64,000 nt of DNA from Tubiluchus corallicola (lineage: Eukaryota > Animalia > Priapulida), in NCBI GenBank assembly GCA_030141605.1, contig JAQGDQ010000012.1, positions 1,196,359 to 1,260,358 of the forward strand, read 5' to 3'. This document shows, piece by piece, positions 16,721 through 58,657 of this stretch. Below the pieces are notes generated by a model, which saw nothing but the letters and a program-made list of their open reading frames with translations, did not search any database and had not been told where the DNA came from. The translations under genes were made by a program, and so were the position numbers. The first letter of the stretch is position 1. Every line of letters begins with the position of its first letter.

Positions 16721-18158
16721 GATTTGATTGATTTGTTTTTTATTTTCAAATTCATAAGTGACGAAATTTATATACTGAAAGTTGCAATTTGCATGAAAGT
16801 TGTAATACAAGTACTATACTCCGTATTTACAGCTAAACGAAACCAGCTATTGCTAAAAAAAACGCACAGTTCGGCAGTGAGTCGCAAGAACAACCAATTT
16901 ATGCTATCAAACAGGAAAGCAAGTAAATGAAAATATAAAACAAGTAAAATAGCACGTAGGTTATAACTACTGCTTTACAATCTTAGAATGTAACCACAAA
17001 ACACAGCGTGTTAAAGCATTTATGATGACTGCTTTGATGATTAGTGTTAAAATACAGTTTGACCATAATAGTTAACTTCCATTTGCCATGATATAACTCA
17101 ATCATGCAAAATTATGAAGCCAAAAAATAATAAAGTGCATTAATAGTATTAAAATAAATAAATAATAGTAAAATGAAATAATTTTTCAATAAAAAAGCAA
17201 GCACGGGTATTGTTAGAGTTTAAAATAAAATGTTAAAAGTTTTCCTTATAAATTATAATTTAGACGTGGAATGTTGCCATGGCTATGTGACCACCCAAAC
17301 TAGTTATTTAATCTAATCACAATATGTAGGTACTGAACAGGCCATAATCTGTGCATGCATCTACTCATAATATGTAGGACTGAACAGACCAACAGAAGCC
17401 AGCATCAACTAGAAAGCCTAGTACTACAGTAAATTTTAGAACATTGTTGAAGAATTTAGTTATATATAAGCGGAGTTAGTAGACAATCTAATCTAAGAAA
17501 AAATCAAATTATCAGTTAACATGAATGTTCGAAAATTGAACTTGAATGTAAACAGTAACCACAACAATACTTATAATAGTAAATAATGTGATGTAATTAT
17601 GACAACTGTCAATTGATTAATATAGGGCATATACTACTATACTTCAAGTTTAACTTAAGGAAAAAAGCTTTGGTAATTTTACAGCTTAAGCAGGTACCTC
17701 AAAAAAGCACAAGAGTCACTAACATGTAATAGCATACAACAAACTTAATTTAAATGAGACCAAAATATGTGGAATGCATGCCAGTAATCTAATGAATATA
17801 GTATGACCAAAATCAATGAAATGGTTTAAGAACAACACAAGATCGCTATTTGGCAAAGAGCAGATGCCAGATTAAATAGATTCAGATTAAATAGTAAAAT
17901 TCACATTAATAGAAAAGACTGATTACTAAAATTTGGTTATCATTAACAACACCATGCTAAATCACATAAAAGTAAAACCCTCCTCAACAAAAATATAAAA
18001 AGTATCAACTGAAGGCTTACAACTGAAAAACTAAACTCAAACAGGTATGTATTACAGCTGCAGAATTAGAAGTAGTACATGTACTAGCTGATAGACTATA
18101 CATATCAGCATAATTAGAATTATCAACAAGTCTAAAAGCAAAGTAAATACAAATGATA

Positions 18159-18164
18159 TTTATT
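18159..18164 (-). terminator. Candidate polyadenylation signal for ADA2/ADGF
   Basis: AATAAA on the minus strand about 260 nt after the stop codon; weak evidence in AT-rich DNA. Confidence 0.3.
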
Positions 18165-18426
18165 CACGTTATCGTGCAAATAAAGTAACATATATACAAA
18201 GGCATACAGGATATATAAAAGGGATGAAATGCGATAATGATGCACCATACAGACAACACTGACAATGGGGCAATATAAATGATTTTAAGAAAATATAACT
18301 TTCAAAAAGCTCTTTGAATTTTAATTAAATGTATTTATAATACTGCAAATATTATTCGTGAACCCAAAATGCATGCAAGTATTTGCAAACCAAAGTACAC
18401 CTAGGAAAATGATGGTTTTGATTACT

Positions 18427-19998
18427 TTACACTTTTTGCGAGTATTCATCAACTACTTCTTGCAGAAATATTATCCACTTTCTTTGCCACAAATTATAAG
18501 CCTTCTCCTTCTCCTGTTCAGATAGGGTACTGTATTTGATAGAGTTGAGAGAAAGTTTCTTAAGTGTTGCCAAGTTGGCATCTTGACCAGCTATGCCCAT
18601 GAAAAACTCATAGAAATCATAGGACAGTCCACTGGCACCCCATAATGGAGGATCATCAGATCCAATTACCATGGGATGATCCTGCGCAAATAAAGTACTA
18701 GCTGGGTGGTTTTGCAAATTATTGACTAGGCCCAAGACTTGGTTTGATATTGGACACAGTTCAATGGGTATGTCTTTATCTTTTGTTACTTTAATGCACA
18801 TTGGGTGTTTTGTAATCGCATAACCATGTCCAATGCGTTTGGTATTAAGTAGTATAGCATCTATGAGATTTCTGTCAGAGGATGTGCCAAAATCATTAGT
18901 CTCGCCAGCGTGGAAGAAATATGGCAAGTCAACTGGGGGATTTAATGTAGACGGATACAGCAATTCATTTCGAAATTCATAAAGTGGCATTCCTAAATCC
19001 TCTTGACCAACTAGATCAAATCCTGTAAAAATATCCGGATAATTTTTCTGAAATGAAAGAGACTGTTTAACACATTCCAGAACAACCTCTTTTGAAGCTA
19101 CTCTGTGAATACAATATTGAAGTTTTGCACCAATAAAGTCTGTATTATCATTAACAAATTGTTTTGTCGTTTCATCGTACAATTTGAGTGCCCATTCCAA
19201 ATCATGAGTACTACCATCTAATTCATATACACCACCTGCTCCCAGTAAGGATCTAAATTCCAGAAACATTACATTGTCAGCATGAAATTCTGCTAAACCG
19301 GCATAATAATAATCTCTGAATACTGGAGCATAAAAAATCAAACCAATTATGGTGCCAAAAATCTGTTCGAAACGTTTCCAAACAACGTCTATATTAGGAT
19401 ACACCTTCTCTGGTTCAGCAACAAACAATGTCAGTTTACTGCTTAACCATTCATCAAACTCAGCAACATTCCTTGCTGCCTTACGCTCATCTGCTACAAG
19501 TTTCCATTCGCAATCATTCTCTTTTGCTGGAGGAGTAAGAGAAAACCGGAACTGCAGATTGTCTTTGCCAACACACATATAGCAATGCTCGCGATACGTA
19601 GCATTCTTTACAAGCCAGTCACCAGATGTGATAGCTAAGTCGTGAGTGTGCAAACACCCACCTTTTGGCATCTTTCTAATTATTCTGAAAACACGACTGT
19701 CATCTATTAGTTTTTTTGCACGGAAGAAATGCATGGCAGGTGGAAACAAGCGAGTCTTTTTAGCAGCCTCGAACTCGTCCAACTTTTCCCTGTTCAATAT
19801 TTCAGACACACGCTGTTCCAAACCAAACAAGTTTTCTCCTCCACCTAGCTGAAGCGATAACTCTTTTGAAAGAATATTCTTCCTCTTATCGTCGTAACTT
19901 CCCATGTTATTTAGCAAGCTCATCAGCACTAAACATAATCGTAGAACAGCACCGTATCGTTTTTTTCCTAGTCCAGCAATTGCGTCCCTGCACGCCAT
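18427..19998 (-). CDS. ADA2: Adenosine deaminase 2 / ADGF (CECR1) family protein, 523 aa, no coding introns
   Basis: ADGF N-terminal motif FPPAMHFF.AK..I..S.VF.II..MPKG; Zn ligands LHTHD and FFHAGET; GFDLVGQED; RIGHG; ELCPISNQVL; SDDP. Catalytic motifs intact. Confidence 0.96.
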   Translation of the reverse strand: MACRDAIAGLGKKRYGAVLRLCLVLMSLLNNMGSYDDKRKNILSKELSLQLGGGENLFGLEQRVSEILNREKLDEFEAAKKTRLFPPAMHFFRAKKLIDDSRVFRIIRKMPKGGCLHTHDLAITSGDWLVKNATYREHCYMCVGKDNLQFRFSLTPPAKENDCEWKLVADERKAARNVAEFDEWLSSKLTLFVAEPEKVYPNIDVVWKRFEQIFGTIIGLIFYAPVFRDYYYAGLAEFHADNVMFLEFRSLLGAGGVYELDGSTHDLEWALKLYDETTKQFVNDNTDFIGAKLQYCIHRVASKEVVLECVKQSLSFQKNYPDIFTGFDLVGQEDLGMPLYEFRNELLYPSTLNPPVDLPYFFHAGETNDFGTSSDRNLIDAILLNTKRIGHGYAITKHPMCIKVTKDKDIPIELCPISNQVLGLVNNLQNHPASTLFAQDHPMVIGSDDPPLWGASGLSYDFYEFFMGIAGQDANLATLKKLSLNSIKYSTLSEQEKEKAYNLWQRKWIIFLQEVVDEYSQKV

Positions 19999-21250
19999 AA
20001 CGAAAAACTGGTTTCAAAAACGAAATTCCTAGCGCTGTCGTGAGCGAACACGTCGTTACCAAGTAGAAACATCATTGTCGATGAGAACAATCACTGTTTT
20101 TTTATTTTTAGCGACAAATTTCAAACCACATTTTGCACTTAAGAGGCTAATTTCACGACAAATCTATAAACTTTTCTCTGCTATTCTCACCATATCATTA
20201 AATAACCGGAAGACATGCTGTACTTCCTCAGGCCACTTGACCTTCTTGACACTTCTGAAACCCTGCACTGCGCTGCTGCTGCAGTGCTGTACGTCTTAAT
20301 TCTTAACGACCTCTATAACATCACACAACATGCACGTGCGCATACATGACCAGCTCGGCTCGCTGCTCCTTTGCAACGCACAGCGTCATCTATTATACTC
20401 AAATAAATTTAAATCAATATGGTTATTTATCTATGTCGATTGCTGAGCACTATGCATTTTCATGCTCCGCTTGGCCAAGTGCTTGTTGTAAATTTCGGTT
20501 AGTCGGAATTCGGAACTTGCAACAAGTTCATCGGTCGTAGTAGATTAGTATGGTGTGGCCGTAGTTCACTCACGTGTCAGGCATCACACACCAGCTCTCA
20601 GTCACTCACGACTGTTTGTTGACCCAATTTACTTGCGCTCATCTATATTATCCTACTCATTGATTCATTTACTCATTGATTTACTCTACTCATCTACTCC
20701 TTGATCATACATCCACCCATTGACTCGTGCATTAAAAGAAAAGCCAAGGCTATTGGGTGAACTTATTTTAATATTTGAGAAAAATATTAATAAGTTTCAG
20801 CATTAAAACTCTGGTAAGCGTCTTGTGTAATTAATAAAATCAATTTAAAATCGCGATAATTTCATGTATGGGCGCGTTCATTTGAACGAAGAATAACCAT
20901 GTGGTTATCGTGCAAAATAAACACCTATCCATCCGGCATCCAGGTGCTGGAACAAACTAATGCAGCTGCAGTTACTATTATCAACTACAAACAATCCAAA
21001 ACGTTAAACGAGAAATAATTAATACTGTTTATCTCGCTACTCAGTATCTAATAAAAAGCAATCACCGAAGAAACAATCACCATGGAATTAACCCCGTGAA
21101 AGTAATAAAATAAACTAAAACCGAACTCAATAAATTAAGTAATTGCAGTGCGAGTGAAACTACAGACGCTTTGCAACGCGTGCTTTCACAACATTCACGT
21201 TGCCACCAGCTTACGTCATTTTTTCAGATATGCCTGCAGCGAGGTTTGTT

Positions 21251-21801
21251 CAGAGATGAGCGGATCACAGTCTGCGGCGTGGATTGAACCAACCAAGATT
21301 TGCAACAGTTTTTGCAGATCGGACCGAACTACAGATTTGTTATTGAAAATAATGCGGATGGCATAAAACATTTTTTTATCACTGTTAATCGCCGAAGTGC
21401 AGTCTGTGTTTAGTAAATGAGTCCGTTTTTATTTTATCCTGCTGATATTTACTGTCATTCTCAATTAATTTGTTTGTTTTGTTTTCCTGATGAGAACAGA
21501 CTGCAAACAACAATTTTTTTATTTTTTATCACACGTACTGCAGCTGCGCGTTTTTCAAAATGTAAGTTATCGTTGTACAAGATTTTTTGGTAAAAGAATT
21601 AACTTTTGATTAAAGTTAGCTTTTTGAGCAGGATTGCTAATTTGAAATTTTGCGAATCGGGCAGGAGTTCGATTCACAAATTGAAAAGTTCAGTGGCGGG
21701 AGCAAAATGCCGCTTTAAATGCAGTTCAAGCGGACTGCGGATTTGCAATTTACGGACCGATTTGTTGCGGACTGAGAAATTAGCCGATCCCTCCACTCAC
21801 G
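21251..21801. mobile_element. Degraded hAT-like non-autonomous element
   Basis: Starts CAGAGATGAGCGGATC; GCGGA/CGGAT subterminal motifs at both ends; right TIR only about half matching; flanks GGTTTGTT / TGTTCGTT match 6/8. Confidence 0.35.
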
Positions 21802-22336
21802 TGTTCGTTTGGCGGGCGGGAGATGAGAATAATTTAAATTTCTTTTGCATTTTTAAGTTCAGATTGTGTGATAATTTCGATTTTTTCAATTATTGCATAT
21901 TAATTTTTTGGAATACTGCATAACATTCTGATTCAGAAAGAACAAAAAGCATTTGCGTTGCAATTAATTCCAAAAACAACTGTGTTCTCCTTCAAATTAA
22001 CCTGATGTTCAACGAATTTTGAAGACTACTACGTAGAGGGCAACACAAGTCCTTGCAAAGATGCAAAAGTAACTTGATCACTAAACAAACAGTTAAACTA
22101 ATTAAGCGATCAGACTAACATCATAAATTTTGAAAAATATTTTGCCAGAAATTGACACCTCAGCACACGGAGCGTCGTTCACACATAACAGCAAGTGCAT
22201 CAACAAATTGACAATAGCGTCAAACTATAGAAAAATGTATATGTATATAATTACATATGATTACAAAAATCGGGGTTGCACTAGTCTTACCTCTTTGGGG
22301 CAGCTAAAAAAGCTAAAAACGTAAACGTGCACTTAC

Positions 22337-22468
22337 CTTAAAACTGCTGTTGAATTCTACTAGTCCATCTCTGTCTGCATCCACATCTATTGAGATCATA
22401 ACTGATGTGATGTGCACTTCCGCTTGAGATATCAATTCATTGCGCGATGTTTTATAATTATAAATGAC
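22337..22468 (-). CDS. PADI: PAD-like gene, coding exon 5 (132 nt, phase 0/0)
   Basis: Acceptor ttatctttttgcgattgtAG, donor AAG|GTAAGT. Encodes VIYNYKTSRNELISQAEVHITSVMISIDVDADRDGLVEFNSSFK, matching recalled human PADI2 VTVNYY...QAGLFLTAIEISLDVDADRDGVVEKNNPKK. Confidence 0.9.
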
Positions 22469-23133
22469 CTACAATCGCAAAAAGATAAATAATCGCTTAT
22501 TCGGTCTACTATTTATTAGCAAGCTTATTAGTCAAATAATATTACATACACATTAGCGTTATTCAAAATATAAAAGTAAAATAAAAATAAAAACAAATAC
22601 TTCAAAAATTACTATAAATGCAAGAGACTCCAGAAGCGCATAATTGCTTATTAACGACAAGGGCCACCATATAACACAGTCAATACTAGTCGTACACTGT
22701 ACAATATTGTACACTAGTCGTTACTGTACAATAAATAAAGAAGAAAATAATCGATCTATTTACATACATGCCTAATTAAAATAACATGACATGATCACCT
22801 AATTATTTAGCAAATAATGCTTGTGTTTATTTTTAAATCTAGAATTTAATTAGTTGGGCTTCGAATTTCAATTCCATTTCAGTCAATTCAATAGATTTAT
22901 TTGTCCCTTTGTGTTACATAATAAAGTACGCTGCATAATCATTGACTAACAAATGGAAACAGAAACGAGGCGGCGAAAAATCTAAAGTCACCTAAGCTGC
23001 CACCCCCATACCACCATCAATATTCATATTTGAATGCCATGTTATTTTTCGTGATATAGTATGAGTGCTTGGCTGCAGTATTTTCATTTATAGATGACTC
23101 TACCATATGCAATATCTATCACAGCTTTCCTAT

Positions 23134-23309
23134 TAGTCTGGTCTGTTAAGGCCAAATGTTGATGAAATGGGGACTGACTGGATACAGTTACCAAACTTTC
23201 AGGAATGTACTATTTGTACCATTTTGACCTAAAATGGCCTAAAAACATTCCTGGAAATTTGGTAGCTGTATCCAATCAGTCCCCTTTTTTCGGCTGACAG
23301 ACCAGACTG
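23134..23309. mobile_element. Palindromic MITE (about 176 bp), probably Tc1/mariner-type, in PAD intron 4
   Basis: AGTCTGGTCTGT / ACAGACCAGACT termini and a second inverted block GGGGACTGACTGGATACAGTTACCAAACTTTCAGGAATGT / ACATTCCTGGAAATTTGGTAGCTGTATCCAATCAGTCCCC; TA near both flanks. Confidence 0.8.
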
Positions 23310-23584
23310 TATTGCACACTTCAACTTCTACAATGAAATAAACACTTTTTGCGAGCAATTTTGTGCATATTGTGTCCGTTGCCACTGGTTCTAGCTTTAT
23401 TTTGTTTTGCTTACGGCACCTCAAGTAAAAGAAAATTGTTATCAACGTGCAACGACGAGCATTATTAAATTTAATGTCGGATAAAATGTTTTGAAAATGT
23501 AGGATGGCTCGCGCTGCGCAGCCTAGTTTTTATAACGATATTGCACACTGCACCAACACATTTACGTATGCTGTGCAGTTTTCT

Positions 23585-24562
23585 CGTGGCGCGGTGAAAA
23601 TGGCACGGTAAAGTGGCACGCAAAAAATGGCACAAATATAAAAGCAGGTAAAAGCAAGGCACGTATTTTGGTGCAATTGATTTTCATAATAAAACTAGAA
23701 TGCACTCAATAGGAAGCAGATCTCTACCAAAGTTGAACAATCCTAAACTTATTCGACTGATTCTTTAGATTAAAAAAATTAACAAAAAGATAAACAAGCA
23801 AATATACAAAAATGTGCCAGTATTGGTATTATATAGAGTAGCAAAAGGCTAATATTTGTTTATTAAACAGATTTATAATCAATAATGCACGAATGTTAAA
23901 CATAGTGTTTATCTCCCTTTTTAAAATTAATTTTGGCGATGGTAATAGACTGACAAATGTATACGTATTTACATACCAAATCACCTTATAACGCTATACA
24001 CATTAATAAGCAAAGGTTGTAGACAGCGCTACACAGTTTTACAAGCGAGAATTTCTCGAAATGGAACTGGAACTAACTCGTAGTTGTTTGTCTAGGTGGA
24101 GATAATAAAAAATAAGTATTAAACACTCCCACTGAGACCTTCACAAAATGCCTCACGAATGTTTTTTATATGTGGTGTTCGGTTAAGTTTTGCGAAAAAA
24201 GAACTGGCGAAAAGATTCCCAATTTGGTACCCTAAACCCCGCCTTTCTTCACAAGGTTTCTTGGAAATCTGTTAGATAGTTTTTGCGTAATAGGCTTACT
24301 GTTGTAACAGACGAAAAAACCAAACAAACAAACTATGTTGAATCATGACTTCCTTGGCAGAGGTAAAAATAAGTAAAATAATTATCCCCCACTGTAAACC
24401 TAACCCTAAACACAGATTTTACAAAGTGTGCCATTTCTTCCTGTGCTATTTTTACCTACGCCATTTTACTTTTTTTTCCATTTGTGCCATTCTTTCATGT
24501 GCCATTTTTACCATGCCATTTTTACTGTGCCATTTTTAGCTGTGCCATTTTACCTACACATT
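23585..24562. mobile_element. Non-autonomous DNA element with inverted terminal arrays of AAAATGGCAC (Mutator-like)
   Basis: AAAATGGCAC repeats at 23597-23662 face GTGCCATTTT repeats at 24428-24551; CCTAACCCTAA at about 24399; flanking direct repeat CAGTTTTC at 23576 and 24563. Confidence 0.65.
23694..24365 (-). mobile_element. Helentron/DINE-1-like non-autonomous element nested in the previous element
   Basis: Minus strand starts TTACCTCTGCCAAGGAAGT, then a (GTTT)n microsatellite, and ends CTTTGGTAGAGAT...GAGTGCATTCTAGTTTT: subterminal inverted repeat, CTAG end, inserted in an A/T run. Confidence 0.65.
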
Positions 24563-24625
24563 CAGTTTTCGCGCTAGATTCTGAGGTTTTTAATGATAAT
24601 CGTAGAAGAAACTTATCCCAGGTAC

Positions 24626-24770
24626 CTTTATATCATCTAAGCTCTTGCTGGCGTTATGCACATGTATAAAAGAAATAGGAGCGGTAGGATAAAAAATGTC
24701 TACGCTAACTCGCGAGGCGGCATCATAACCTTCGACTTCTGCATTGATAGTTGTAATGAGTGATGTTGCC
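24626..24770 (-). CDS. PADI: PAD-like gene, coding exon 4 (145 nt, phase 2/0)
   Basis: Acceptor ttttgatctctattttAG, donor AAG|GTACCT; open frame (G)ATSLITTINAEVEGYDAASRVSVDIFYPTAPISFIHVHNASKSLDDIK ending in AS....D.K as PAD exon 2 does; phases fit both neighbours. Confidence 0.78.
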
Positions 24771-25269
24771 CTAAAATAGAGATCAAAATAAGCATTGTAA
24801 CTTCACTTGTGCAAAACGCCATAAAGTCCGTTTTATTTTTTTTACCGATAGATGGAGCAATGTGCTTTTTGTTTCCTGCTGACTGAGCGTAGCATGTTAC
24901 TCACCTCAGCTTACTACCTCATACTAATGTTAGTTCTTACTCTTCCAAAAAGATGAAAAGTTAAAGATTAATGGTGAACGTCAAAGTAAAATTGGACTAG
25001 GTGTAGTCTGTTTGTTTAGTGCTAGTGGGGACTGTTCGTTTAGTTGTTTTTATACAAGATGCGATGTCTAGAAATCTATGTACAGTAGTTATATTCTCAC
25101 TCTTTAATATAATAAATAATTTTACTAGTGGCTTTAACTAATGTTTAAGACTAATAACTTCATGGACTTTTGTGTTCTGCATTCTCTATATAGCTATAGA
25201 CAAAAATAAGATTTAGGCATATTAGTCTATTCGACTGCATATTAACGAAAAATACTAAACGTTACTCAC

Positions 25270-25359
25270 CCTGTCAGCTTAACACAAGTTTTCTGCCCAA
25301 CAACATTGAGGACGTGCGACACGAGTCCAAATTTGAGTTCAACGATTCTCTGTCTTGAA
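25270..25359 (-). CDS. PADI: PAD-like gene, coding exon 3 (90 nt, phase 2/2)
   Basis: Acceptor ttttatattactctAG, donor GG|GTGAGT; only one open frame, SRQRIVELKFGLVSHVLNVVGQKTCVKLT, aligning with recalled PADI2 N-terminus LRERTVRLQYGSRVEAVYVLGT. Confidence 0.82.
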
Positions 25360-25731
25360 CTAGAGTAATATAAAACTCTGCAAGTCTATTAGGTATTTTA
25401 ATAGAACAATAATAATATTATTATTTTGACATCAGTACGAATAAATTAAATTAAGTGTATTAAAGGAAAGTTATTAAATACTCATTAATGTCAGATTGAA
25501 AGAAATCAAAAACAATTAACTAAGGACATTAGGATTTCCAGTCATGCACTTTTAAAAATGTTTCATTAGTCTTTTGCAACAAAAGCGAATAATATTATTG
25601 GGAGCAGAATCCTTCTAATACAGCTTTGAGTGGACGTTATAATTAAGTAGCCCAATTTTTTTATTTCTTTAAATATGTGCATATATAATTATTGTAATAT
25701 TTCTGGTGGCTCTGAAAGTCGAGATGATTAC

Positions 25732-25838
25732 CATTCTTTATGAAGATAATGATAGTGTCCGGCATGTGGATTGACTCGATTGCGTCGGTCGGTAAAGTGT
25801 TTTCTTCTTCTGGGTTCCGATATCAGAAAAGGAAGCGA
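25732..25838 (-). CDS. PADI: PAD-like gene, coding exon 2 (107 nt, phase 0/2)
   Basis: Acceptor gtttattttgactccAG, donor TG|GTAATC; open frame SLPFLISEPRRRKHFTDRRNRVNPHAGHYHYLHKE(C); phases fit both neighbours. No homology support. Confidence 0.65.
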
Positions 25839-26443
25839 CTGGAGTCAAAATAAACACATAACACGATATTAGCTAGAGCTGTCACGTTAGTGATTAAGTA
25901 ACAAAAAAAAAGCACAAACGCAAGTCGATTTTTCTTCAAATCGACAGTTTAGTTCTAGATCCACATTCTACGTTTATACTTTTAACTTGCTAATTTTCCA
26001 CACCACCCTTAGTTGGATGAAGTGGCCAGAAGAATAGAATAAAATGCCAACTATAGAATTTGTCAATTTAAAATTAAAGTAATTTATTTGGCATTATTAT
26101 CAAAATTGTGTACAATCGACAAATCTGTCCATTACAAATATCAAATTATACGCTACAAACTCTACACCTTATTATTATTGCGATTATCTTCATCCTATTT
26201 AGCTTACAGCTATACATTCAACCAAAAAACGGAAGCAGAATAAAACAAAGGAAGAAGACAGACACAAGAGAATGGAATGGAGAACTAGGCAAGGTAAAAA
26301 GAAAGTAAAAGCAGTCAGGCAGTCAGTTAGTCAATCAGCCAGCTACTTGACTGACAGTCTGTTAAATCAGTCGGTTGTCGGTTATTTCAATTGGAATAAC
26401 TATGTAGCACAAGCAAATAGACATAATTCCTTCATTCAATAGT

Positions 26444-26576
26444 CATTCATTCACTCGTTCGTTCGTTCATTCATTCATTCATTCATTCATTCATTCATTC
26501 ATTCATTCATTCATCCAGCCAGCCAGCCAGCCAGCCAGCCAGCGCCAGCTATTGATTCATTGATTCATTCATTCAC
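26444..26576. repeat. Compound microsatellite (CATT)n-(CCAG)n
   Basis: Directly visible tetranucleotide runs in PAD intron 1. Confidence 0.95.
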
Positions 26577-26723
26577 AAGTTGTTACTCACTCGGTCAGTC
26601 AGACAGCTAGCCAGCAGCCAATTAGTCAGGTTATTTTCTTTTGTCAATCAGTCGTATCCGGTATCCGAGTGGATATAAAATTTTAGCTCTAGAAGTAGCA
26701 AAGATGTCGTCACGAAAACTTAC

Positions 26724-26759
26724 CAACATGAATATAAATGCTATGGTCCTAGTTCTCAT
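26724..26759 (-). CDS. PADI: PAD-like gene, coding exon 1 (ATG plus 11 codons)
   Basis: ATG at 26759, MRTRTIAFIFML, then consensus donor TTG|GTAAGT in phase 0; joins exon 2 to give a continuous hydrophobic signal-like peptide. Confidence 0.65.
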
Positions 26760-27799
26760 GATTAACTTCAAGATGAAATGAAATTAAATCTTTTCTAATT
26801 CATTGTTAGCGATTCGAGCCCACCAATGAATTTTCTAGAAAACATAATAAAAGAACAAGAGAAATTTTTTTCATTAATCACCACTGTGTGTGCCGCACAA
26901 ATTGCTACTATCTCCATTTTTTACAAACCCGAATCCAAGTGATACAGATATATAGTCATGGTCATGGTGATCAAACGTTTGTCTGAGCTGGACTGGGCTT
27001 CTATTTCAAATTTGAAAGCCAGAATTATTCTGTGTGTAGCAACTTCGCTGTCGATTTTCGTGAAGAATATGTAAATATGTTCTTTTTATAAATTTATGAG
27101 ACGTTATAATGACAGAATGATAGTAGATTCGTCTGATCAAAAGAAAGATAGGCAGGCAACGAGGTAACGAAAATGTAAATGGTAATGATGATACTGTGTG
27201 CTACGTTTAAAAATTTTGCAGTCGAATAAGACTTATATGAAAACATAACTTTGTTCTTATTACTATAGTAACGTTGTCGCGTTGTTTTGATAATTGTTGT
27301 ATTACTTTTAGTCTTTCCTTTTCTAAAAGTAAAAATCCAAGAAAATATGACAGTTCATATCGGCTGTGGTAATATTCGTAATTTCAGTTTGCGATTTACC
27401 TAGAACGTGACTATATGGGTGCAAAACTGACTTCATTTATCGGCGATATGTAGTGAAAGTTAGTCAATGTCAGCAACTACTCCATTAGACGAAGGATCCC
27501 AGGGTAAGCATTTGGGATCATACATTAAATTCACTACAATAATGAACCAAAATTCAAGCTACCAACATGCTAAATTTACATACCTATTATGAAAGTTAAT
27601 GCTACTTAACAGCAAAAATCCATAAAGAGGAGCCACTTGGCTTATAATATAATCCAGACGTCATAGCTTGAAATAACAGAAAACATGCTGTCACGGTATA
27701 GTCTTGAGTTCACTGTTCGCAGCTGCACATGTCTCCGTGTTTTCTCACGCATCTGTGATGATAATAGCATCCTCCCTCCTGCAGTCAGTCATGTTTAGC

Positions 27800-45730: not shown

Positions 45731-45790
45731 GGACACGAATTCTCAAGCGAAAAAATCAGTGTAGACGAAGCTCAAGGTGGTCACCATTAA
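45731..45790 (+). CDS. Candidate second part of the small upstream ORF (19 codons plus stop)
   Basis: Strong acceptor cttttttttatttttctAG|G at 45730; phase-0 reading GHEFSSEKISVDEAQGGHH-TAA. Confidence 0.4.
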   Translation, partial: GHEFSSEKISVDEAQGGHH

Positions 45791-45803
45791 ATTACGCTCA
45801 GCG

Positions 45804-48800
45804 ATGATTTCAATGTTGAAATCTCTGGGAAAATCTCACCAGCACTTCATTTCAGCGACAACAGACGGCAGCACAAACATAGTTAACGGTGATGATCAAA
45901 GAAATGGAGATGTTTGCAGCGCTGACAAAAAGATACCGAATCGCGCTGACAGTGAACAGGAATTAAAAAATAATCAACAAGTTTTGATTAATGGCCTTCC
46001 AGATCTGGCGCTGGATGCTGAAAGTGAATTTGCCAATTATAATGGTAGCGAGCGAAAAGCAGGAAAGGATTCCCGATTCAAGATAAGCCCGTCCGTGTTT
46101 TCGGAAACTAAAAATATCGAATCGCCAAGTACTGATATGAAATATAATGCGTCTGGCACACGAGTAAAAGTCAGTTCCTGTAAAAAACCGAACAGTTGCG
46201 ATACTATGTCATCTGTAATGGATTCGGTTACCACTTTGAGTTGTGAGCCGAGTTTAGCAAACGGCAGCAGCAGTGTAGCAACAGAGTGTTCCAGTAGCGA
46301 CATTTCCGCGGATTCAGTACAGGCGAAGCCAGAAGACGAGGTTCCGGAACCTATCTCAACAAATAAACAGAGTGAATGCGAAGAACTGGACATTGACTTC
46401 GCTCTGGGCATCGTTGATGTGCGTGGAAAAAGCAGCGAGAAAAAGTCAGTTGACGCTAGGAGTGAATCAAAAACAGGACTGCCTAACAAAACAAATGCAA
46501 GTCTGTACGGTTGTCAAAATGAAGTGAACGACAGTGATGATGACGTGTCTAACAAAATTCTTGATATATTAGTGGAAGAGTGCTCTCACTTGAACAATAA
46601 AGTTGTAAACAAACACGACCAATTTGATTTGGGAGTCTTGCAAAACGGCATTTTGAAAAACTGTGTCAAGTTTAGAGATGATTCGATCAGAAAGCGAGTG
46701 TCTTTTTCAAACAGTGTGACAGAAGTGAGTTTTGAAGTCGACAGTGACTCGTCCACTGATAATGAATCTACAGCTGAGGACAGTGCAGTCAGTGGGTGTG
46801 AAAACTTGAGCTTAACAGACAGATTGGCAGCTATAAAAGATCACTTAAATTACACAATAGAAGCGTCAACAACTGTACCTGCAGAGGACAATGTGGAAAA
46901 AATCTATTCTTGTGTCACAGGTAACATTACAAGTGGACCTATTTTATGCGAGGGAGAAGCCGATTTCTCTAGTAATAACAGTTTGCCTGTTACGCAAGAT
47001 TCATTAGCCGACAGCTGTGTGACGAATTCCGAAGCGAAGCCGTTTTCTCGAGTTACCAGCAATGAAAACACATCAAATGCCGATGCTCTTATTCCGACAC
47101 CTTACCGTCTACCGCGGCTTATATATCAACCCGGGCAGAACTCTGAATCCACAAATACAGCGACCGCGAACGTGACGGGTGTATACTCAGACGCACACTC
47201 TGGGCCTTTGTTGGAGATTTTCAACGCACAGTCCATTAACAATCATAACATCGAGTGCAATGATGTAAATAGTGGCATATATTACTGCAATGGTAAAACT
47301 GGTGATTTAGACTTTGAAAACAGACACATTAGTAATGACATTGTGGATCAAAGCGGAGACGAATTAACAAGAGAAAGTAATAACGCAATTAGTAAAGAGA
47401 ATAACGGTGTCAGCGTGTCAAAACCCAACGAAGAACACCTGGCGATGTTTGTTCAAAGTGAATATAAAGTAAAACCAGATCGTGGAAGCCATGCTCCGGA
47501 TTCGACCGGATTGCTGGCTGACGATAAACAGACTGACAAAACAACAACAACAACATCAACGTCGCAATTATTAGGTCATTTGGTTGAAATGGATATTGAT
47601 GACGCACTTCAAACTCGTGGTGAATTCGTCAGCAAGAACAGCAAAGTTTCTGCCGGTAATGATGACTACAGTTGTAATCTTGCTTTAAACAAAAGTCAGC
47701 CGAGTATAATGGGTTCAGATCAGAAAACTGATTACTGTATTAGCAGAAAACCAGATAAAAACAGAGCTGATGTGACATTTTCGAGTAATGAACTGCTGCC
47801 GTCCTCACCAGCATCAACAACTCAAGAGTCACAACAAGCCCCGCAACAAACACCACTGTCGTTACTGCTGTCGCCATCATTGAAACAAACTGACATCACA
47901 CAGGAAGACCGAATATGGCGCCGAGAAATGAGCCCTGGTGTTGATGATGAGGACAGTGATTCCAGCACTGCTTCACAGGACACCATGATTAGGCGGTCAC
48001 CTGTAAAAAGCATTCGTGTACCTCAGCAAGATAATGATCACTCTCTGGTAACACTTGAGCACAGAGAAAATGCAGAAATGGCTATTAAGTATCAGCAATA
48101 CGACTTGAAACGAAAAGCACTGGAACGGAAAAACTTAAATTTGAGAATAGGTCACTGCCCGGCTCTCAGACGGACAGCGGCCGCAGGCGTGGACGAGTCT
48201 TCATGTAATGATTTAGAAGAAAAACTAAAAATGCTTAATCTGTTCGAGAAGGGTAGTCAAGCAACCAATACACCTGATGCATTATCAGATAACTGTAATA
48301 TAGGTTCAAGTGGTCAGTGCGCTGGAATGGAGAAAATAAGTGAAAATACCTCAAGTGAATATGTTTCAGCGGTTGAGAGCAATGGTGAAAAATGTCCCAA
48401 TCCTCAGAACTTCCCCGCGTCATTGGTGCAAACAGTCGTGTCATGCATACCAGCAGTACCGTGTAATCTCTCGGTAGGCAAGCTGGCTGATAATTGTAGT
48501 TCAAAGACTTCTAATGACTGTTTGACATTGGATAGTATAATTACTAGCAAAACTGACCTGGATATGCTAATAACTGTAGCAAGTGTGACCACAGCAAACT
48601 CGGTTGAACAAAAGAGTGTTTTATCGCCGTGTTGCGCATCTCCAGGCAGTTTGGATGTGGTTATGGATGAGAAATTGAACGTTGCTGTGGGCAAAAGTGC
48701 AGACAACCTTGTTGAACGGTTCTATGACCCAACCGATTACAGACCACAGTGTAGCAGTGGTGATAGTTGCGTGCAAGATCGTAGTCCCTTCAGTCCGAGT

Positions 48801-51800
48801 AAGTCAAATACCGAAAAACGTGGTAGTAATTACACTGACGTGAAAGAAGATAACACTGTTGTTGCACAGTGTAGTGATAAATTAACTTCAGAAACAAACG
48901 ATTTTACAGAAGCGAGTTCCATCGAAAGTATCAGTTCAGGCAACATAGCATTGAATACTAGTAAAATAGCGTGCCGCGTTGATGAAGTGAAGCCTCATAC
49001 AGTCGCTGCAGCTGCATATACAAGCAGAGCCACTCAGAGTTTTAACCAAATAAAAACAAACAACCAATCTGTTTTAGCAAGAAAACCAGAGAGTCACACC
49101 GCCGCCGGAAACGACCCGTTTAAAGAAAAATTGAGTCGAACTAAATTCGAGGCTAAAGCTAAACCAGTCAAAATGATTTTGCCGCAGATGAATCATCAAG
49201 CCGGCGAAAGAAAAAGTGAATCCAGTTCATACAGTAACAGCGTGGATTGGGAAGATATTGGACTGCAACTGCATAAAAAGTATCAGAGCAATAATGTAAA
49301 TGACCTCTTGTACAGCATACATACCTCATACGGCATGGCGGATCAGCTGGATCAACTAGATTTGGATTTTCCGGATGTTAAAAATCTGGATCGCGATACT
49401 AGCGTATATTTAAGCGAGACTGAAGCGTCAAATGACAATATATGCAGCTCGCCCAGTCAACGAACTACTGACACTCATGAACAAAGGGTGAAGATGGAAC
49501 GAAAGTTGGAGCGCTTGCGCTTAGAAATGGAAAAAACTTGTTTCAGCTCCCGAGTGAAAAACAGGGCTAGAGGGCGACAGAAACGCAATCCAGACAGATT
49601 CTGTTTCTCCGACGTGGAAGACGACAATGAAGTGGAGTCCATGTCTCCATCGGATGACAGGTTCTATATGTCGGATTCTGAGTGTGTTAGAGGCTCAAAA
49701 ACAAAGAAACGAAGCAATAAAAGTTACACAGAGAAAGACCTGAATCAAGTTTTTCATCGGTTACAGATACCACAGAATGTGGGTAGAATATACAGTGATG
49801 ACGAAGTAACGCGTGTTATAACAAACAGCTTGCAACGTCACGTTGAGAATGAGATTGTTAGAAACAGCATGGACAACCTTCTGGACACACCAGACCATTA
49901 TAGTCCAGATTGGGACCAAATCGGATTTTCTGACAGTGAACTTTTGTCCGACGGCAGAACCAAGCCGGATCCAAAATTGTTGGGCAATGGAGACATTCAT
50001 CTCCGGGTTGATGAGGCATCACATAAACGCCTTGATGTTTCTGGCCCAACTTATGAGCAACATTATCCCACTGCAGAACCCAATTTTGCTATGTATGCTC
50101 AATCGCAGAAAAAACATATAAAATACGAGTCTCGTCTTCCAATTCCAAACAAACCCATTTATAAACCCCCAGGAATCCCAATTAGTGACCAGTCACCTGC
50201 TCGGTCCGTTCCTATAAAGCGAATGCCAGATATGCAATATCACCTTAAAAAGAACACAAACAGAAACACTGGTGCCTGTAACACGCCTAGCGCAAACGCA
50301 AAACCGTCAAGGAAACCGGATAGTTTAACACCTGACAAACAAAAGGAGGAAAAGACAAATCGGCAGGCATTGCAGCTCGAAGTGGAAAGTAATGCCCAAA
50401 GCAAAAATGCAAACGCGATTGACCCTGTTCAGCAACGTTTGTCAAGGCCATCTCGGATTTTTTGCAATTTTTTCAAGAAACAGAAACTAAATATCAGCAG
50501 GGCTCTGTCACCTGAACGGAAAGAGAAGAGTTCGCAGCCATCATTGAACTCTGACCAGATTCGAAAGAAAATGCAGGCTAATCTTAGCAAGGCAACCATT
50601 TCAGAGCCTCAAAATCTAAGGCGAATAACTCATTCTGCTGACAAATCCGACGAACTGAAGAAATTTGTCAGTCAAGACTATCAGCGAATTAGGAAAGTTT
50701 GTGAGCGTTATAAAAGAGACGAACGTGATGACTTTGAGAGTCCAAATCGCAGTGATTCGATCAGTAGTGGTCAGCGTCCAAAATTCTGCACTTCTGCGGA
50801 AATTTACCAACAACTGGAAAGCAGAGTACGCCCTCCACGTGTCCAGCCAAGGTCTGATTCAGCACCATTAAATGGTGTTGATCACACCCGTAGTGGCCGC
50901 CAAGGTGTAGCCAGAAGTCAAAGTCTTATAGCAGGAAGACCAGACAAAGTGCATTTACGAAATCGAATAGAGTCTCCGGGTTCCAGTTCTAGCGCACCTA
51001 CTATAGTTGAAGAACAACTAGCAAATTCCATTGACAGTAGTCCTCAGCATGGCCATCGAGGTAATATAATAAACATCAGACAACAACAAGTATTTTTGGA
51101 AAACGGTCACTCGGGAAGTTGTCATCAGGTTAAAAATAAAACGAAAATAATAAGACCAAATGCTAGTGGTCGTTCAGAAATACCGCGAAGTGGATTATCA
51201 TCCATAGTCCATGATCAACAAGGCTACATGCGGGGTTCACCCGGACATCATGGTTCTCCTCTTCGAGGTGGTTCTCCTCAGCAAGGGCAATCTCCTGCTT
51301 CTCAACAACGTCGACAGGTGTCGCCACAATTTGCACAGACCTCGCCAATATCTGTGCCGAACAATCAATCACACCCCATAGGTCCAGTTCCTCATTCACA
51401 AATGAATGGCTTCATTCGAAAATCAGCTGATACCTCTCTGCAGCTCCCTCTAGCTCAGGTGCTTTCCAGCAACATCCCGGAAACGGAAGTCAGTGGAGCA
51501 TCTCCCAGTCAGAATGTAAAACTGGTGACTAGGTACACAAATAATGGCGCATTCATTCAACTTGCGTACAAAGCTAGTCCTCAGACTCCGTCTCCCATAG
51601 CAACCAATCGCCATGAAGTTGAGCCTCCACCATTGCATTCACAAAAGTTATTAAATGATTTTCAAAATCCTAAAATTACTCACGATTCATCTTTGATTTA
51701 CCAGCACCATAACACACAGGCGAATTATCCTCACGGTGTCAATGGGTGGAATGATCCCGGTGTTTTACCTCATCGAGGGATGCCTTACCGTTACGGCTAT

Positions 51801-52082
51801 GAACATAACGAACGACAACCAGGGTCACCACAAATACGTCAAGGTTTACCAGTACTACATCGGCGGCGGCTGTTGCCAATGTACGCAGCTTCCCCTCTGG
51901 ATGAACAAAATAAGCCCGTGCCACCAATGAGATTAGAAAGTCTACCCAAATCGTCCAACGAAAATAATTTCAACTTTGATACTGAAAGAGGCTTAGTTCG
52001 AGAAGTTCACAATCTCAATCAACAAGATGCTCCTACTTTGGTTGACCGAAGTTCTGATGAAAGGACTTACTATCCACCCTGA
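45804..52082 (+). CDS. Uncharacterised 2092-aa Ser/Asp/Asn-rich, probably disordered protein; candidate PP1-interacting scaffold
   Basis: 6.3-kb uninterrupted ORF in AT-rich DNA; in-frame TAG at 45762 makes ATG 45804 (or 45813) the start; GILK and KRVSF motifs, SxIP-like motifs, short coiled-coil-like stretches; no globular domain recognised. Confidence 0.88.
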   Translation: MISMLKSLGKSHQHFISATTDGSTNIVNGDDQRNGDVCSADKKIPNRADSEQELKNNQQVLINGLPDLALDAESEFANYNGSERKAGKDSRFKISPSVFSETKNIESPSTDMKYNASGTRVKVSSCKKPNSCDTMSSVMDSVTTLSCEPSLANGSSSVATECSSSDISADSVQAKPEDEVPEPISTNKQSECEELDIDFALGIVDVRGKSSEKKSVDARSESKTGLPNKTNASLYGCQNEVNDSDDDVSNKILDILVEECSHLNNKVVNKHDQFDLGVLQNGILKNCVKFRDDSIRKRVSFSNSVTEVSFEVDSDSSTDNESTAEDSAVSGCENLSLTDRLAAIKDHLNYTIEASTTVPAEDNVEKIYSCVTGNITSGPILCEGEADFSSNNSLPVTQDSLADSCVTNSEAKPFSRVTSNENTSNADALIPTPYRLPRLIYQPGQNSESTNTATANVTGVYSDAHSGPLLEIFNAQSINNHNIECNDVNSGIYYCNGKTGDLDFENRHISNDIVDQSGDELTRESNNAISKENNGVSVSKPNEEHLAMFVQSEYKVKPDRGSHAPDSTGLLADDKQTDKTTTTTSTSQLLGHLVEMDIDDALQTRGEFVSKNSKVSAGNDDYSCNLALNKSQPSIMGSDQKTDYCISRKPDKNRADVTFSSNELLPSSPASTTQESQQAPQQTPLSLLLSPSLKQTDITQEDRIWRREMSPGVDDEDSDSSTASQDTMIRRSPVKSIRVPQQDNDHSLVTLEHRENAEMAIKYQQYDLKRKALERKNLNLRIGHCPALRRTAAAGVDESSCNDLEEKLKMLNLFEKGSQATNTPDALSDNCNIGSSGQCAGMEKISENTSSEYVSAVESNGEKCPNPQNFPASLVQTVVSCIPAVPCNLSVGKLADNCSSKTSNDCLTLDSIITSKTDLDMLITVASVTTANSVEQKSVLSPCCASPGSLDVVMDEKLNVAVGKSADNLVERFYDPTDYRPQCSSGDSCVQDRSPFSPSKSNTEKRGSNYTDVKEDNTVVAQCSDKLTSETNDFTEASSIESISSGNIALNTSKIACRVDEVKPHTVAAAAYTSRATQSFNQIKTNNQSVLARKPESHTAAGNDPFKEKLSRTKFEAKAKPVKMILPQMNHQAGERKSESSSYSNSVDWEDIGLQLHKKYQSNNVNDLLYSIHTSYGMADQLDQLDLDFPDVKNLDRDTSVYLSETEASNDNICSSPSQRTTDTHEQRVKMERKLERLRLEMEKTCFSSRVKNRARGRQKRNPDRFCFSDVEDDNEVESMSPSDDRFYMSDSECVRGSKTKKRSNKSYTEKDLNQVFHRLQIPQNVGRIYSDDEVTRVITNSLQRHVENEIVRNSMDNLLDTPDHYSPDWDQIGFSDSELLSDGRTKPDPKLLGNGDIHLRVDEASHKRLDVSGPTYEQHYPTAEPNFAMYAQSQKKHIKYESRLPIPNKPIYKPPGIPISDQSPARSVPIKRMPDMQYHLKKNTNRNTGACNTPSANAKPSRKPDSLTPDKQKEEKTNRQALQLEVESNAQSKNANAIDPVQQRLSRPSRIFCNFFKKQKLNISRALSPERKEKSSQPSLNSDQIRKKMQANLSKATISEPQNLRRITHSADKSDELKKFVSQDYQRIRKVCERYKRDERDDFESPNRSDSISSGQRPKFCTSAEIYQQLESRVRPPRVQPRSDSAPLNGVDHTRSGRQGVARSQSLIAGRPDKVHLRNRIESPGSSSSAPTIVEEQLANSIDSSPQHGHRGNIINIRQQQVFLENGHSGSCHQVKNKTKIIRPNASGRSEIPRSGLSSIVHDQQGYMRGSPGHHGSPLRGGSPQQGQSPASQQRRQVSPQFAQTSPISVPNNQSHPIGPVPHSQMNGFIRKSADTSLQLPLAQVLSSNIPETEVSGASPSQNVKLVTRYTNNGAFIQLAYKASPQTPSPIATNRHEVEPPPLHSQKLLNDFQNPKITHDSSLIYQHHNTQANYPHGVNGWNDPGVLPHRGMPYRYGYEHNERQPGSPQIRQGLPVLHRRRLLPMYAASPLDEQNKPVPPMRLESLPKSSNENNFNFDTERGLVREVHNLNQQDAPTLVDRSSDERTYYPP

Positions 52083-58134: not shown

Positions 58135-58441
58135 GGAATGTAACGAATCAGTTAGCATGTTCAATTGTTACTATCGCGAAATGCGTTAAAATGTAGCTAA
58201 AAAGTATAGGCCTGGTGTAAAAGTGAGAAAGTTGAGAAACGGGGAATGCACGAATCCCTTGCATAGATGGAGCCACCGACTAATAAAAAGTCACACAAAT
58301 CTCAAAATCACCGATCCATACGGCCCAAAGCCGTCAACTGCATTCCAGTGGCAAATCTAATTATTATTGACGAGCTGTGATTGGTCAACTTCCGTGACGT
58401 CAGAAGAATACTATGCGGTGGGGTAATGAGTTCTGTCAGTT
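58135..58441 (+). promoter_or_regulatory. kibra promoter: three TEAD/MCAT cores, CCAAT box, ETS core, CRE and initiator
   Basis: GGAATG at 58135 and 58243, CATTCC at 58341, ATTGG at 58380, ACTTCCG at 58388, TGACGTCA at 58395, TCAGTT at 58436, all within 400 bp of the ATG. Confidence 0.65.
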
Positions 58442-58529
58442 TAGGAAAGAAAATGGTGGCTGGCCTGTGCGTGATTTGTGCGAAAAAACCGATTTAGATG
58501 TGCTGAATTCAGTGGTATTACAGCGAAAT

Positions 58530-58657
58530 ATGCCAAAGAGAAAAAATGGGGAATTGCCACTACCCGATGGCTGGGATATGGGTCGAGATTATGATGGGAA
58601 AGTCTTCTTTATTGACCACAAAACTCAACATACAACTTGGGTTGACCCGCGAGACAG
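58530..58657 (+). CDS. kibra: kibra/WWC family gene, first coding exon (first WW domain); gene continues beyond the window
   Basis: [42 protein letters not shown](R) matches recalled WWC1 [27 protein letters not shown]...SWIDPRDR; donor AG|GTATGC in phase 2 within the last Arg. Exon 2 not found before 64000. Confidence 0.92.

What the first reader, a model, noticed from the sequence alone, without database searches (positions are those of the whole stretch)
25732..26759. The PAD-like protein seems to carry a signal peptide and basic pro-segment: a candidate secreted citrullination enzyme
Seen: two extra exons ahead of the PAD-homologous part encode MRTRTIAFIFMLSLPFLIS-EP (basic n-region, hydrophobic core) followed by RRRKHFTDRRNRVNPHAGHYHYLHKE, which has an RxxR site and several His. 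Known: vertebrate PADI1-4/6 lack signal peptides and need high calcium, which the secretory and extracellular space supplies. Inference: a dedicated secretory animal PAD family acting on matrix, mucus, adhesive or immune proteins, possibly with a cleavable pro-peptide. This is the best candidate for an undescribed system here, but exons 1-2 rest on splice and phase logic only.
Basis: partly seen in the sequence, partly recalled or inferred. Interest (0 to 1): 0.85.

Follow-up and report, generated by a model that had tools for sequence, protein, structure and literature searches.

The report
Invertebrate PAD with predicted export signal
The start of an invertebrate gene for a calcium-dependent protein-citrullinating (PAD) enzyme lies behind two small predicted exons that would add an export signal, absent from the vertebrate and priapulid-worm enzymes compared, so it likely makes a secretory-pathway form, although no transcript links the exons and the catalytic part is not in the window.

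Summary
It is the homologue of vertebrate PADI residues 2-31 (best of 2670 windows), has no ATG and needs a phase-2 coding exon upstream. With it the PAD_N domain is complete, so the 47-residue leader is a true extension if it is spliced on. Exons 1-2 are the best of 3 chains within 1.5 kb that can feed it and pass my signal-peptide heuristic (0 of 110 PADI homologues do). Chance chains pass in 4 of 118 real and 6 of 600 simulated regions; none is as good. Against: no RNA covers the exons, the exon-2 donor is weak, the Priapulus PADI has no such leader, basic residues behind the hydrophobic core fit export poorly, and nothing past PAD residue ~135 lies in the window; the next 22 kb hold same-strand ADA2 and glypican genes. 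Verdict: animal-type PADI 5' end; leader real ~0.6; secretory, full-length enzyme ~0.33.

The parts
26724..26759 (-). Exon 1 (predicted): ATG, basic n-region and first half of the hydrophobic core, 12 codons, phase-0 donor
   Evidence: donor score in the 99th percentile of 1270 GT sites; A at -3; no homology, no RNA
25732..25838 (-). Exon 2 (predicted): rest of the hydrophobic core, predicted cleavage after Ser19, Arg/His-rich segment; phase 0 to 2; reading through its donor stops at once
   Evidence: (acceptor 96th, donor 93.5th percentile); GC 43% against 30-34% in flanks, codon usage uninformative
25270..25359 (-).
   Evidence: (best of 2670 stop-free windows and of 151 with a phase-2 GT; donor GTGAGT), (donor 99.8th, acceptor 78th percentile)
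24626..24770 (-).
   Evidence: vertebrate profile aligns without a gap across its 3' junction; one synonymous difference in run X1 at 24635
22337..22468 (-). End of PAD_N and start of PAD_M with the DxDADRDG motif; equivalents of calcium-site-6 residues D125 and E131 kept; phase-0 donor GTAAGT; last PAD exon in the window
   Evidence: human PAD2, E 1.5e-4; 31 bits, E 1.6e-8; site-6 residues named in PMC8826395
25660..25665 (-). AATAAA about 60 nt behind the read-through stop of exon 2; possible end of a short leader-only transcript
   Evidence: weak, the hexamer occurs 1.8 times per kb in nearby non-coding DNA

Best explanation
This is the 5' end of an animal-type PADI (protein-arginine deiminase) gene whose N-terminal domain is encoded by three exons, and two upstream exons likely splice onto it to add a predicted cleavable signal peptide and a basic, His-rich segment, so that a full-length enzyme, whose catalytic exons are inferred to lie beyond the window, would enter the secretory pathway. 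Shown: the three PAD exons, their phases, the lack of an ATG in the first of them, and the intact calcium-site-6 motif. Inferred: splicing of exons 1-2 (about 0.6); export rather than anchoring (about 0.7 if spliced); a continuation past a 22-kb or longer intron that holds ADA2 and glypican (about 0.65, partly tied to the first step). Most likely working: the signal peptide is cut after Ser19; the enzyme meets high calcium in the ER, Golgi or secretory granules, where cell-derived thiols could keep the catalytic cysteine reduced, and citrullinates Arg-rich cargo before or just after release. The Arg-rich segment could be trimmed by a convertase at its dibasic or RxxR sites, or act as a self-substrate; both are guesses.
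For: New exon is the top match to vertebrate PADI2 residues 1-31 and ends at a phase-2 donor where vertebrate models break (7 bird partial models begin at residue 32). It has an in-frame stop upstream and no ATG. Within 1.5 kb only 3 chains can feed it and exons 1-2 score 7.2 against 0.7 and 0.7; joining exon 1 directly shifts the frame. The hydrophobic core runs across the exon 1-2 junction. The heuristic passes 92 of 116 ADA2 homologues and 0 of 110 PADI homologues; the leader scores 2.51 with charge +2. Null tests: 4 of 118, 6 of 600, 1 of 250 signal-like, 0 as good. The core fits the vertebrate profile better than the bacterial three-domain one (56.6 against 29.1 bits). The fold can be exported: 48 of 64 bacterial PADI frames carry a hydrophobic leader. 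No stop or frameshift in the PAD exons.
Against: No transcript links any exon. The exon-2 donor is weak (0.55) and the preferred acceptor of the new exon scores low (-2.0) on recalled matrices. Exon 2 is nearly open in all three frames and codon usage does not favour the leader frame (-1.8 against +2.0 and +0.3). The Priapulus PADI starts with about 16 extra polar residues and no hydrophobic stretch (PMC8826395 supplement). Net charge behind the core exceeds that in front by 2.5, seen in 0 of 85 ADA2 leaders. No PAD sequence past residue ~135 in 3489 six-frame fragments. Human PADs need reducing conditions and are inactivated outside cells (PMC4858833 abstract). A signal peptide was once predicted for mouse ePAD (PMC1215517), a protein that a later review places in the cytoplasm as PADI6 (PMC9174705; the ePAD = PADI6 link is recalled). 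The heuristic is home-made and missed the window's own ADA2 leader. Two N-glycosylation sequons are not unusual: 4 of 25 vertebrate PADI2s have 2 or more there.
Confidence: 0.33

Rival explanations
1. An ordinary cytosolic invertebrate PADI like that of Priapulus. The true first coding exon is another one (short, polar, perhaps far upstream), and exons 1-2 are either a chance splice solution or a separate small gene for a 48-residue secreted Arg/His-rich peptide that ends at the stop behind the exon-2 donor.
For: Priapulus PADI has only a short polar extension; 0 of 110 PADI homologues have a leader. Three single ATG exons with phase-2 donors of score 2.5-2.9 lie 5-9 kb upstream (30605, 33655, 34643). 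Read-through of exon 2 gives an immediate stop and an AATAAA follows. T-rich DNA behind acceptors translates as hydrophobic residues (inference).
Against: Signal-like chains arise by chance in about 1-3% of regions and none as good. The distant candidates have weaker donors than exon 1 and would have to splice over exons 1-2. No ATG exon with a phase-2 donor of score 0.5 or more lies between exon 2 and the new exon.
Confidence: 0.27
2. The leader is real but the gene is cut short: a 5' relic or partial duplicate, or a small secreted non-catalytic protein made of the leader plus the PAD_N domain, ending 7 codons past the exon-4 donor.
For: No PAD_M/PAD_C exon in the 22.3 kb behind exon 4 or elsewhere in the window. 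That stretch holds two intact genes on the same strand, whereas the four introns seen are 0.4-2.2 kb. A high-copy repeat lies between exon 4 and ADA2. Read-through of the donor stops after 7 residues.
Against: The exon-4 donor is the strongest of the gene (99.9th percentile); the calcium-site motif, which belongs to PAD_M, is intact; no good terminal exon stands out behind it; all PAD exons are open.
Confidence: 0.22
3. The leader is real but is not an export signal: the short hydrophobic stretch followed by basic residues works as an N-out, C-in membrane anchor (ER or mitochondrial surface) or as another targeting sequence, leaving a membrane-tethered PAD facing the cytosol near calcium-release sites.
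For: Charge behind the core (+5.5) exceeds that in front (+3), unlike 85 of 85 ADA2 leaders; the positive-inside rule (recalled) favours a cytosolic C-terminus; a reducing, cytosol-facing site suits the catalytic cysteine.
Against: The core is only 13 residues with a basic n-region, a Pro at -5 and a small residue at -1, the usual signal-peptide layout (rule recalled). The ADA2 comparison is a single family.
Confidence: 0.15

Closest known systems
Vertebrate PADI2 (human PAD2, PDB 4n20/9ovq) and PADI1-4/6
   Same: PAD_N aligns from profile position 2 to 130; 35-37 identities in 122 residues to mouse, shark and sea bream PADI2; calcium-site-6 motif; an exon boundary after residue 31.
   Different: 47 predicted extra residues ahead of the vertebrate Met1 position, with signal-peptide features that 0 of 110 homologues show; shorter loop in the middle of PAD_N; catalytic part not seen.
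Priapulus caudatus PADI (alignment in the supplement of PMC8826395)
   Same: Invertebrate three-domain type; by eye it shares a Cys at PAD_N position 26 and a similar strand before the conserved Lys; it also extends ahead of the first strand.
   Different: Its extension is about 16 polar residues with no hydrophobic core; compared by eye only.
Actinobacterial and myxobacterial two-domain PADIs
   Same: Same PAD_M/PAD_C family; most carry a hydrophobic leader (48 of 64 frames), so exported PADI-type enzymes are predicted in bacteria.
   Different: They lack PAD_N (PMC8826395); the two three-domain bacterial frames in that set (L020, L064) have no leader; the window gene has introns and fits the vertebrate profile better.
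centiPAD of centipede venom and Porphyromonas PPAD
   Same: Secreted peptidylarginine deiminases, one of them in animals, proposed to modify co-secreted proteins (PMC7864903 passages).
   Different: A separate enzyme family taken from bacteria by recent transfers and described there as unrelated to human PADs; the window gene is of the PADI family.

Membership tests
Animal three-domain PADI | PAD_N domain | tested here: met
   Profile of 25 vertebrate PADI2 N-termini aligns over positions 2-130; 15.5 bits without the motif block. Pfam gave no hit on exons 3 and 4 scanned singly.
Animal three-domain PADI | Start of PAD_M with calcium site 6 (D125, E131 of PAD2) | tested here: met
   D158 and E164 of the model; residues named in PMC8826395; hit to human PAD2.
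Animal three-domain PADI | Rest of PAD_M with calcium sites 3-5 | tested here: inconclusive
   Not in the window; the gene may run off its end.
Animal three-domain PADI | PAD_C domain with catalytic Cys, His and two Asp | tested here: inconclusive
   Not in the window; no whole genome is held.
Animal three-domain PADI | Calcium-dependent citrullinating activity | not testable with these tools
   Needs an assay.
Cleavable eukaryotic signal peptide | Basic n-region, uncharged hydrophobic core, (-3,-1) cleavage site | tested here: met
   Home-made heuristic: charge +2, mean hydropathy 2.51 over 12 residues, cut after residue 19.
Cleavable eukaryotic signal peptide | Flank in front of the core at least as positive as the flank behind | tested here: not met
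   C minus N = +2.5; 0 of 85 ADA2 leaders reach that. A tendency, not an absolute rule.
Cleavable eukaryotic signal peptide | Leader is present in the mRNA and is recognised by SignalP-class predictors | not testable with these tools
   No RNA run covers the exons; no such predictor is on hand.
PPAD / centiPAD (Porphyromonas-type deiminase) | Lacks PAD_N and PAD_M | tested here: not met
   The gene has PAD_N and the PAD_M start; PPAD lacks both (PMC8826395).

The most novel reading that the evidence does not exclude
An invertebrate lineage has given the animal three-domain PADI its own signal peptide and Arg/His-rich pro-segment, perhaps captured from a small secreted-peptide gene, making the first PADI that enters the classical secretory pathway and citrullinates lumenal or extracellular cargo by design. 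The weak exon-2 donor would let the same locus also make a 29-residue cationic His-rich peptide.
Probability: 0.33. Interest if true: 0.72.

Novelty: new variant of a known kind. Interest (0 to 1): 0.5.

Why it matters
Mammalian PADs sit in the cytoplasm or nucleus, yet need at least ten times more calcium than cells normally hold (PMC9174705 passages) and lose activity outside cells unless reduced (PMC4858833). A PADI with its own export signal would be a natural test of how the enzyme works where calcium is high and thiols are scarce, and would point to programmed citrullination of secreted proteins in animals. Even without the leader, the gene adds an intron-bearing PADI to the three invertebrate carriers listed in 2021 (Priapulus, Saccoglossus, Branchiostoma; PMC8826395), which bears on the transfer-then-loss history of the family; the host here may or may not be a priapulid.

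Tried and rejected
RNA: no RNA holder listed for 18000-27500; run X2 (RNA is a guess; a relative about 90-95% alike) covers glypican only, and X1 covers none of exon 1, exon 2 or the new exon: no evidence either way. No whole genome is held. Direct searches with exon 4 found no relative: 4 candidates, none scored; one hit among 1.84 billion representatives, P0121, a repeat protein and an artefact; none in genome or metagenome contigs; only weak parE matches in plasmids; no usable Atlas hit for exons 3 or 4. No named invertebrate PADI was among the 120 listed of 625 hits, so orthologues could not be aligned; the Branchiostoma row in the supplement lacks its N-terminus and I saw no Saccoglossus sequence there. 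Rejected: my early idea that exons 1-2 are just a diverged PAD_N start, and that another frame of exon 2 is the PAD frame (no profile match; ranks 82 and 440 of 2670; the real homologue is the new exon). Rejected as unlikely: splicing of exon 4 to an in-frame AG ahead of ADA2, since ADA2 has its own ATG and hydrophobic leader and that acceptor scores 0.4. Pfam on 150 of 285 minus-strand frames below exon 4 gave no PAD hit; the rest were covered. The ADA2 tree leaves the host unplaced: outside the vertebrate, mollusc and amphioxus clades, long branch, no priapulid in the tree. Literature: searches listed no report of a signal-bearing animal PADI apart from the 2005 ePAD prediction; subscription papers are not covered. 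No structure was predicted, since the spliced product cannot be given to that tool.

Full report
Setting. The window is AT-rich animal DNA. On the minus strand, below the finding, lie single-frame ADA2 (20013-18427) and glypican (13375-11543) genes. ADA2's best relatives are at most 51% identical, and a tree of 29 rows leaves it outside the vertebrate, mollusc and amphioxus clades without a supported partner. Earlier scan notes on this genome suggest a non-arthropod invertebrate, perhaps a priapulid (unchecked). No whole genome is held.

The observation. The two leader exons are at the stated places and join in frame. The exon at 22468-22337 matches human PAD2 (E 1.5e-4). To get homologues I scanned prokaryotic genomes for the catalytic motif (123 loci), picked frames with a PAD_M hit, aligned five fragments with exon 4 and searched with that profile (625 hits, 120 listed). 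A profile of 25 vertebrate PADI2 N-termini gives 53 bits for exons 3+4, with no gap at their junction.

A missed exon. A scan of all 2670 stop-free 31-codon windows between 45000 and 24771 with a profile of residues 1-31 from 19 vertebrate PADI2s settled it: the best window (26.8; mean -26.3, SD 8.9; next 10.5; vertebrate self scores 43-74) lies at 25361-25269 and ends exactly at a phase-2 GTGAGT donor. Seven partial bird models begin at residue 32, in line with an exon boundary there; that the vertebrate intron is phase 2 is recalled. The exon is 25359-25270, 90 nt, phase 2 to 2, with no ATG and an in-frame stop upstream. The five-exon product is 170 residues and the profile aligns from residue 49 to 167 (positions 2-130). 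The core scores 56.6 bits with the vertebrate profile and 29.1 with one from 38 bacterial three-domain PADIs.

Is the leader real? The new exon needs an upstream coding exon ending in phase 2. Within 1.5 kb there are 3 possible chains; exons 1-2 score 7.2, the others 0.7. Three single ATG exons with donors of 2.5-2.9 lie 5-9 kb away. Splice scores rest on recalled matrices: donors of exon 1, the new exon and exon 4 are in the top 1% of 1270 GT sites, the exon-2 donor is weak (93.5th percentile) and the new exon's acceptor is only at the 78th. A simple signal-peptide rule passes the leader (hydropathy 2.51, charge +2, cut after Ser19), 92 of 116 ADA2 homologues and 0 of 110 PADI homologues, but misses the window's own ADA2. 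Signal-like chains appear at 4 of 118 non-coding anchors, and in 6 of 600 and 1 of 250 simulated regions; none equals the observed chain. The criteria were fixed after seeing the sequence, so I read this as a likelihood ratio of some tens against a low prior, about 0.6 that the leader is spliced on. Codon usage does not help. No RNA run covers the exons.

Results against. The Priapulus PADI in the supplement of PMC8826395 starts with about 16 extra polar residues and no hydrophobic core (compared by eye). The 15 residues behind the core carry +5.5 against +3 in front; 0 of 85 ADA2 leaders show that excess, which leaves room for a cytosol-facing anchor. Two sequons in the core are matched or exceeded by 4 of 25 vertebrate PADI2s. 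Reading through the exon-2 donor stops at once and an AATAAA follows, so exons 1-2 could also form a 48-residue peptide precursor. Most important, nothing beyond PAD residue ~135 is in the window: motif scan, Pfam on 150 of 285 frames, a full-length profile over 3489 six-frame fragments and tblastn with 29 homologues, and a sliding profile find only the exons named. Either intron 5 exceeds 22 kb and holds two same-strand genes, or the gene is cut short. The strong exon-4 donor and the intact calcium-site-6 residues favour a continuing gene but do not show it.

Mechanism. If spliced and complete, the protein would be cut after Ser19 and enter the ER. Human PADs need calcium well above cytosolic levels (PMC9174705 passages) and a reducing agent, and are inactivated outside cells (PMC4858833 abstract). 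I therefore expect work on cargo inside the secretory pathway or at release, not a long-lived extracellular enzyme. Residues 20-47 (6 Arg, 2 Lys, 5 His; RxxR at 30-33) could be a convertase-trimmed pro-segment or a self-substrate; nothing here tests that.

Comparison. PADI is known from vertebrates and three invertebrate genera (PMC8826395 section 5); that paper's main text never mentions signal peptides. Exported PADI-type enzymes are predicted in bacteria: 48 of 64 frames of suitable length among loci L001-L080 have a hydrophobic leader, while the two three-domain frames there do not. Secreted animal deiminases exist as centiPAD, but of the unrelated Porphyromonas type (PMC7864903 passages; PMC9325314 passages). 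A signal peptide was predicted in 2005 for mouse ePAD (PMC1215517 passages). My searches listed no other case. PMC11016909 (passages) added nothing on this point.

Verdict. An animal-type PADI 5' end is shown, with a corrected five-exon structure. A secretory, full-length enzyme is the single most likely reading (0.33), ahead of an ordinary cytosolic PADI with another first exon (0.27), a truncated or non-catalytic form (0.22) and a membrane-anchored form (0.15). New variant of a known kind; interest 0.5, and 0.72 if confirmed.

Noticed in passing
window 20013-18427 (-) and 13375-11543 (-): ADA2 (523 aa from the first ATG) and glypican (608 aa) are each one intact reading frame without coding introns, in tandem on the PAD strand and possibly inside PAD intron 5; both families usually have many introns (recalled). 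Run X2 covers glypican and its long 3' end down to about 9020.
   Followed up: partly
window 26759, 19998, 13369 (-) and 58530 (+): Each of these four predicted start codons has an AG 6-11 nt upstream, three of them CAG: 5' UTR introns or trans-splice acceptors. Acceptor scores are low (1.4, 0.4, -4.5, -2.1).
   Followed up: partly
window 45765-52082 (+): 2105-codon Ser/Gln/Pro-rich open frame with no Pfam hit.
   Followed up: no
window 58398-58685 (+): Frame with a WW-domain start that looks like the first coding exon of KIBRA/WWC (name by recall, not searched).
   Followed up: no
window 20261-20183 (-): Possible small exon upstream of ADA2 (AG and GTGAGA ends, open in frame with ADA2); more likely a 5' exon of ADA2 than a PAD exon, since the PAD profile scores that frame 0.6 bits.
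   Followed up: partly
window about 21240-21820 and 23300-24620: High-copy repeats by depth in run X1, one between exon 4 and ADA2, one in the intron before exon 4.
   Followed up: no
P0122, P0124-P0138 and related; L023, L054: Bacterial PADIs of 1260-1900 aa fused to OmpA-like and peptidoglycan-binding domains (PF00691, PF01471) recur among the hits.
   Followed up: no
L020, L064: Three-domain-length PADIs close to the animal type in Ruegeria and an Oceanospirillales genome (390 bits to human PAD1 for L064), outside cyanobacteria.
   Followed up: partly
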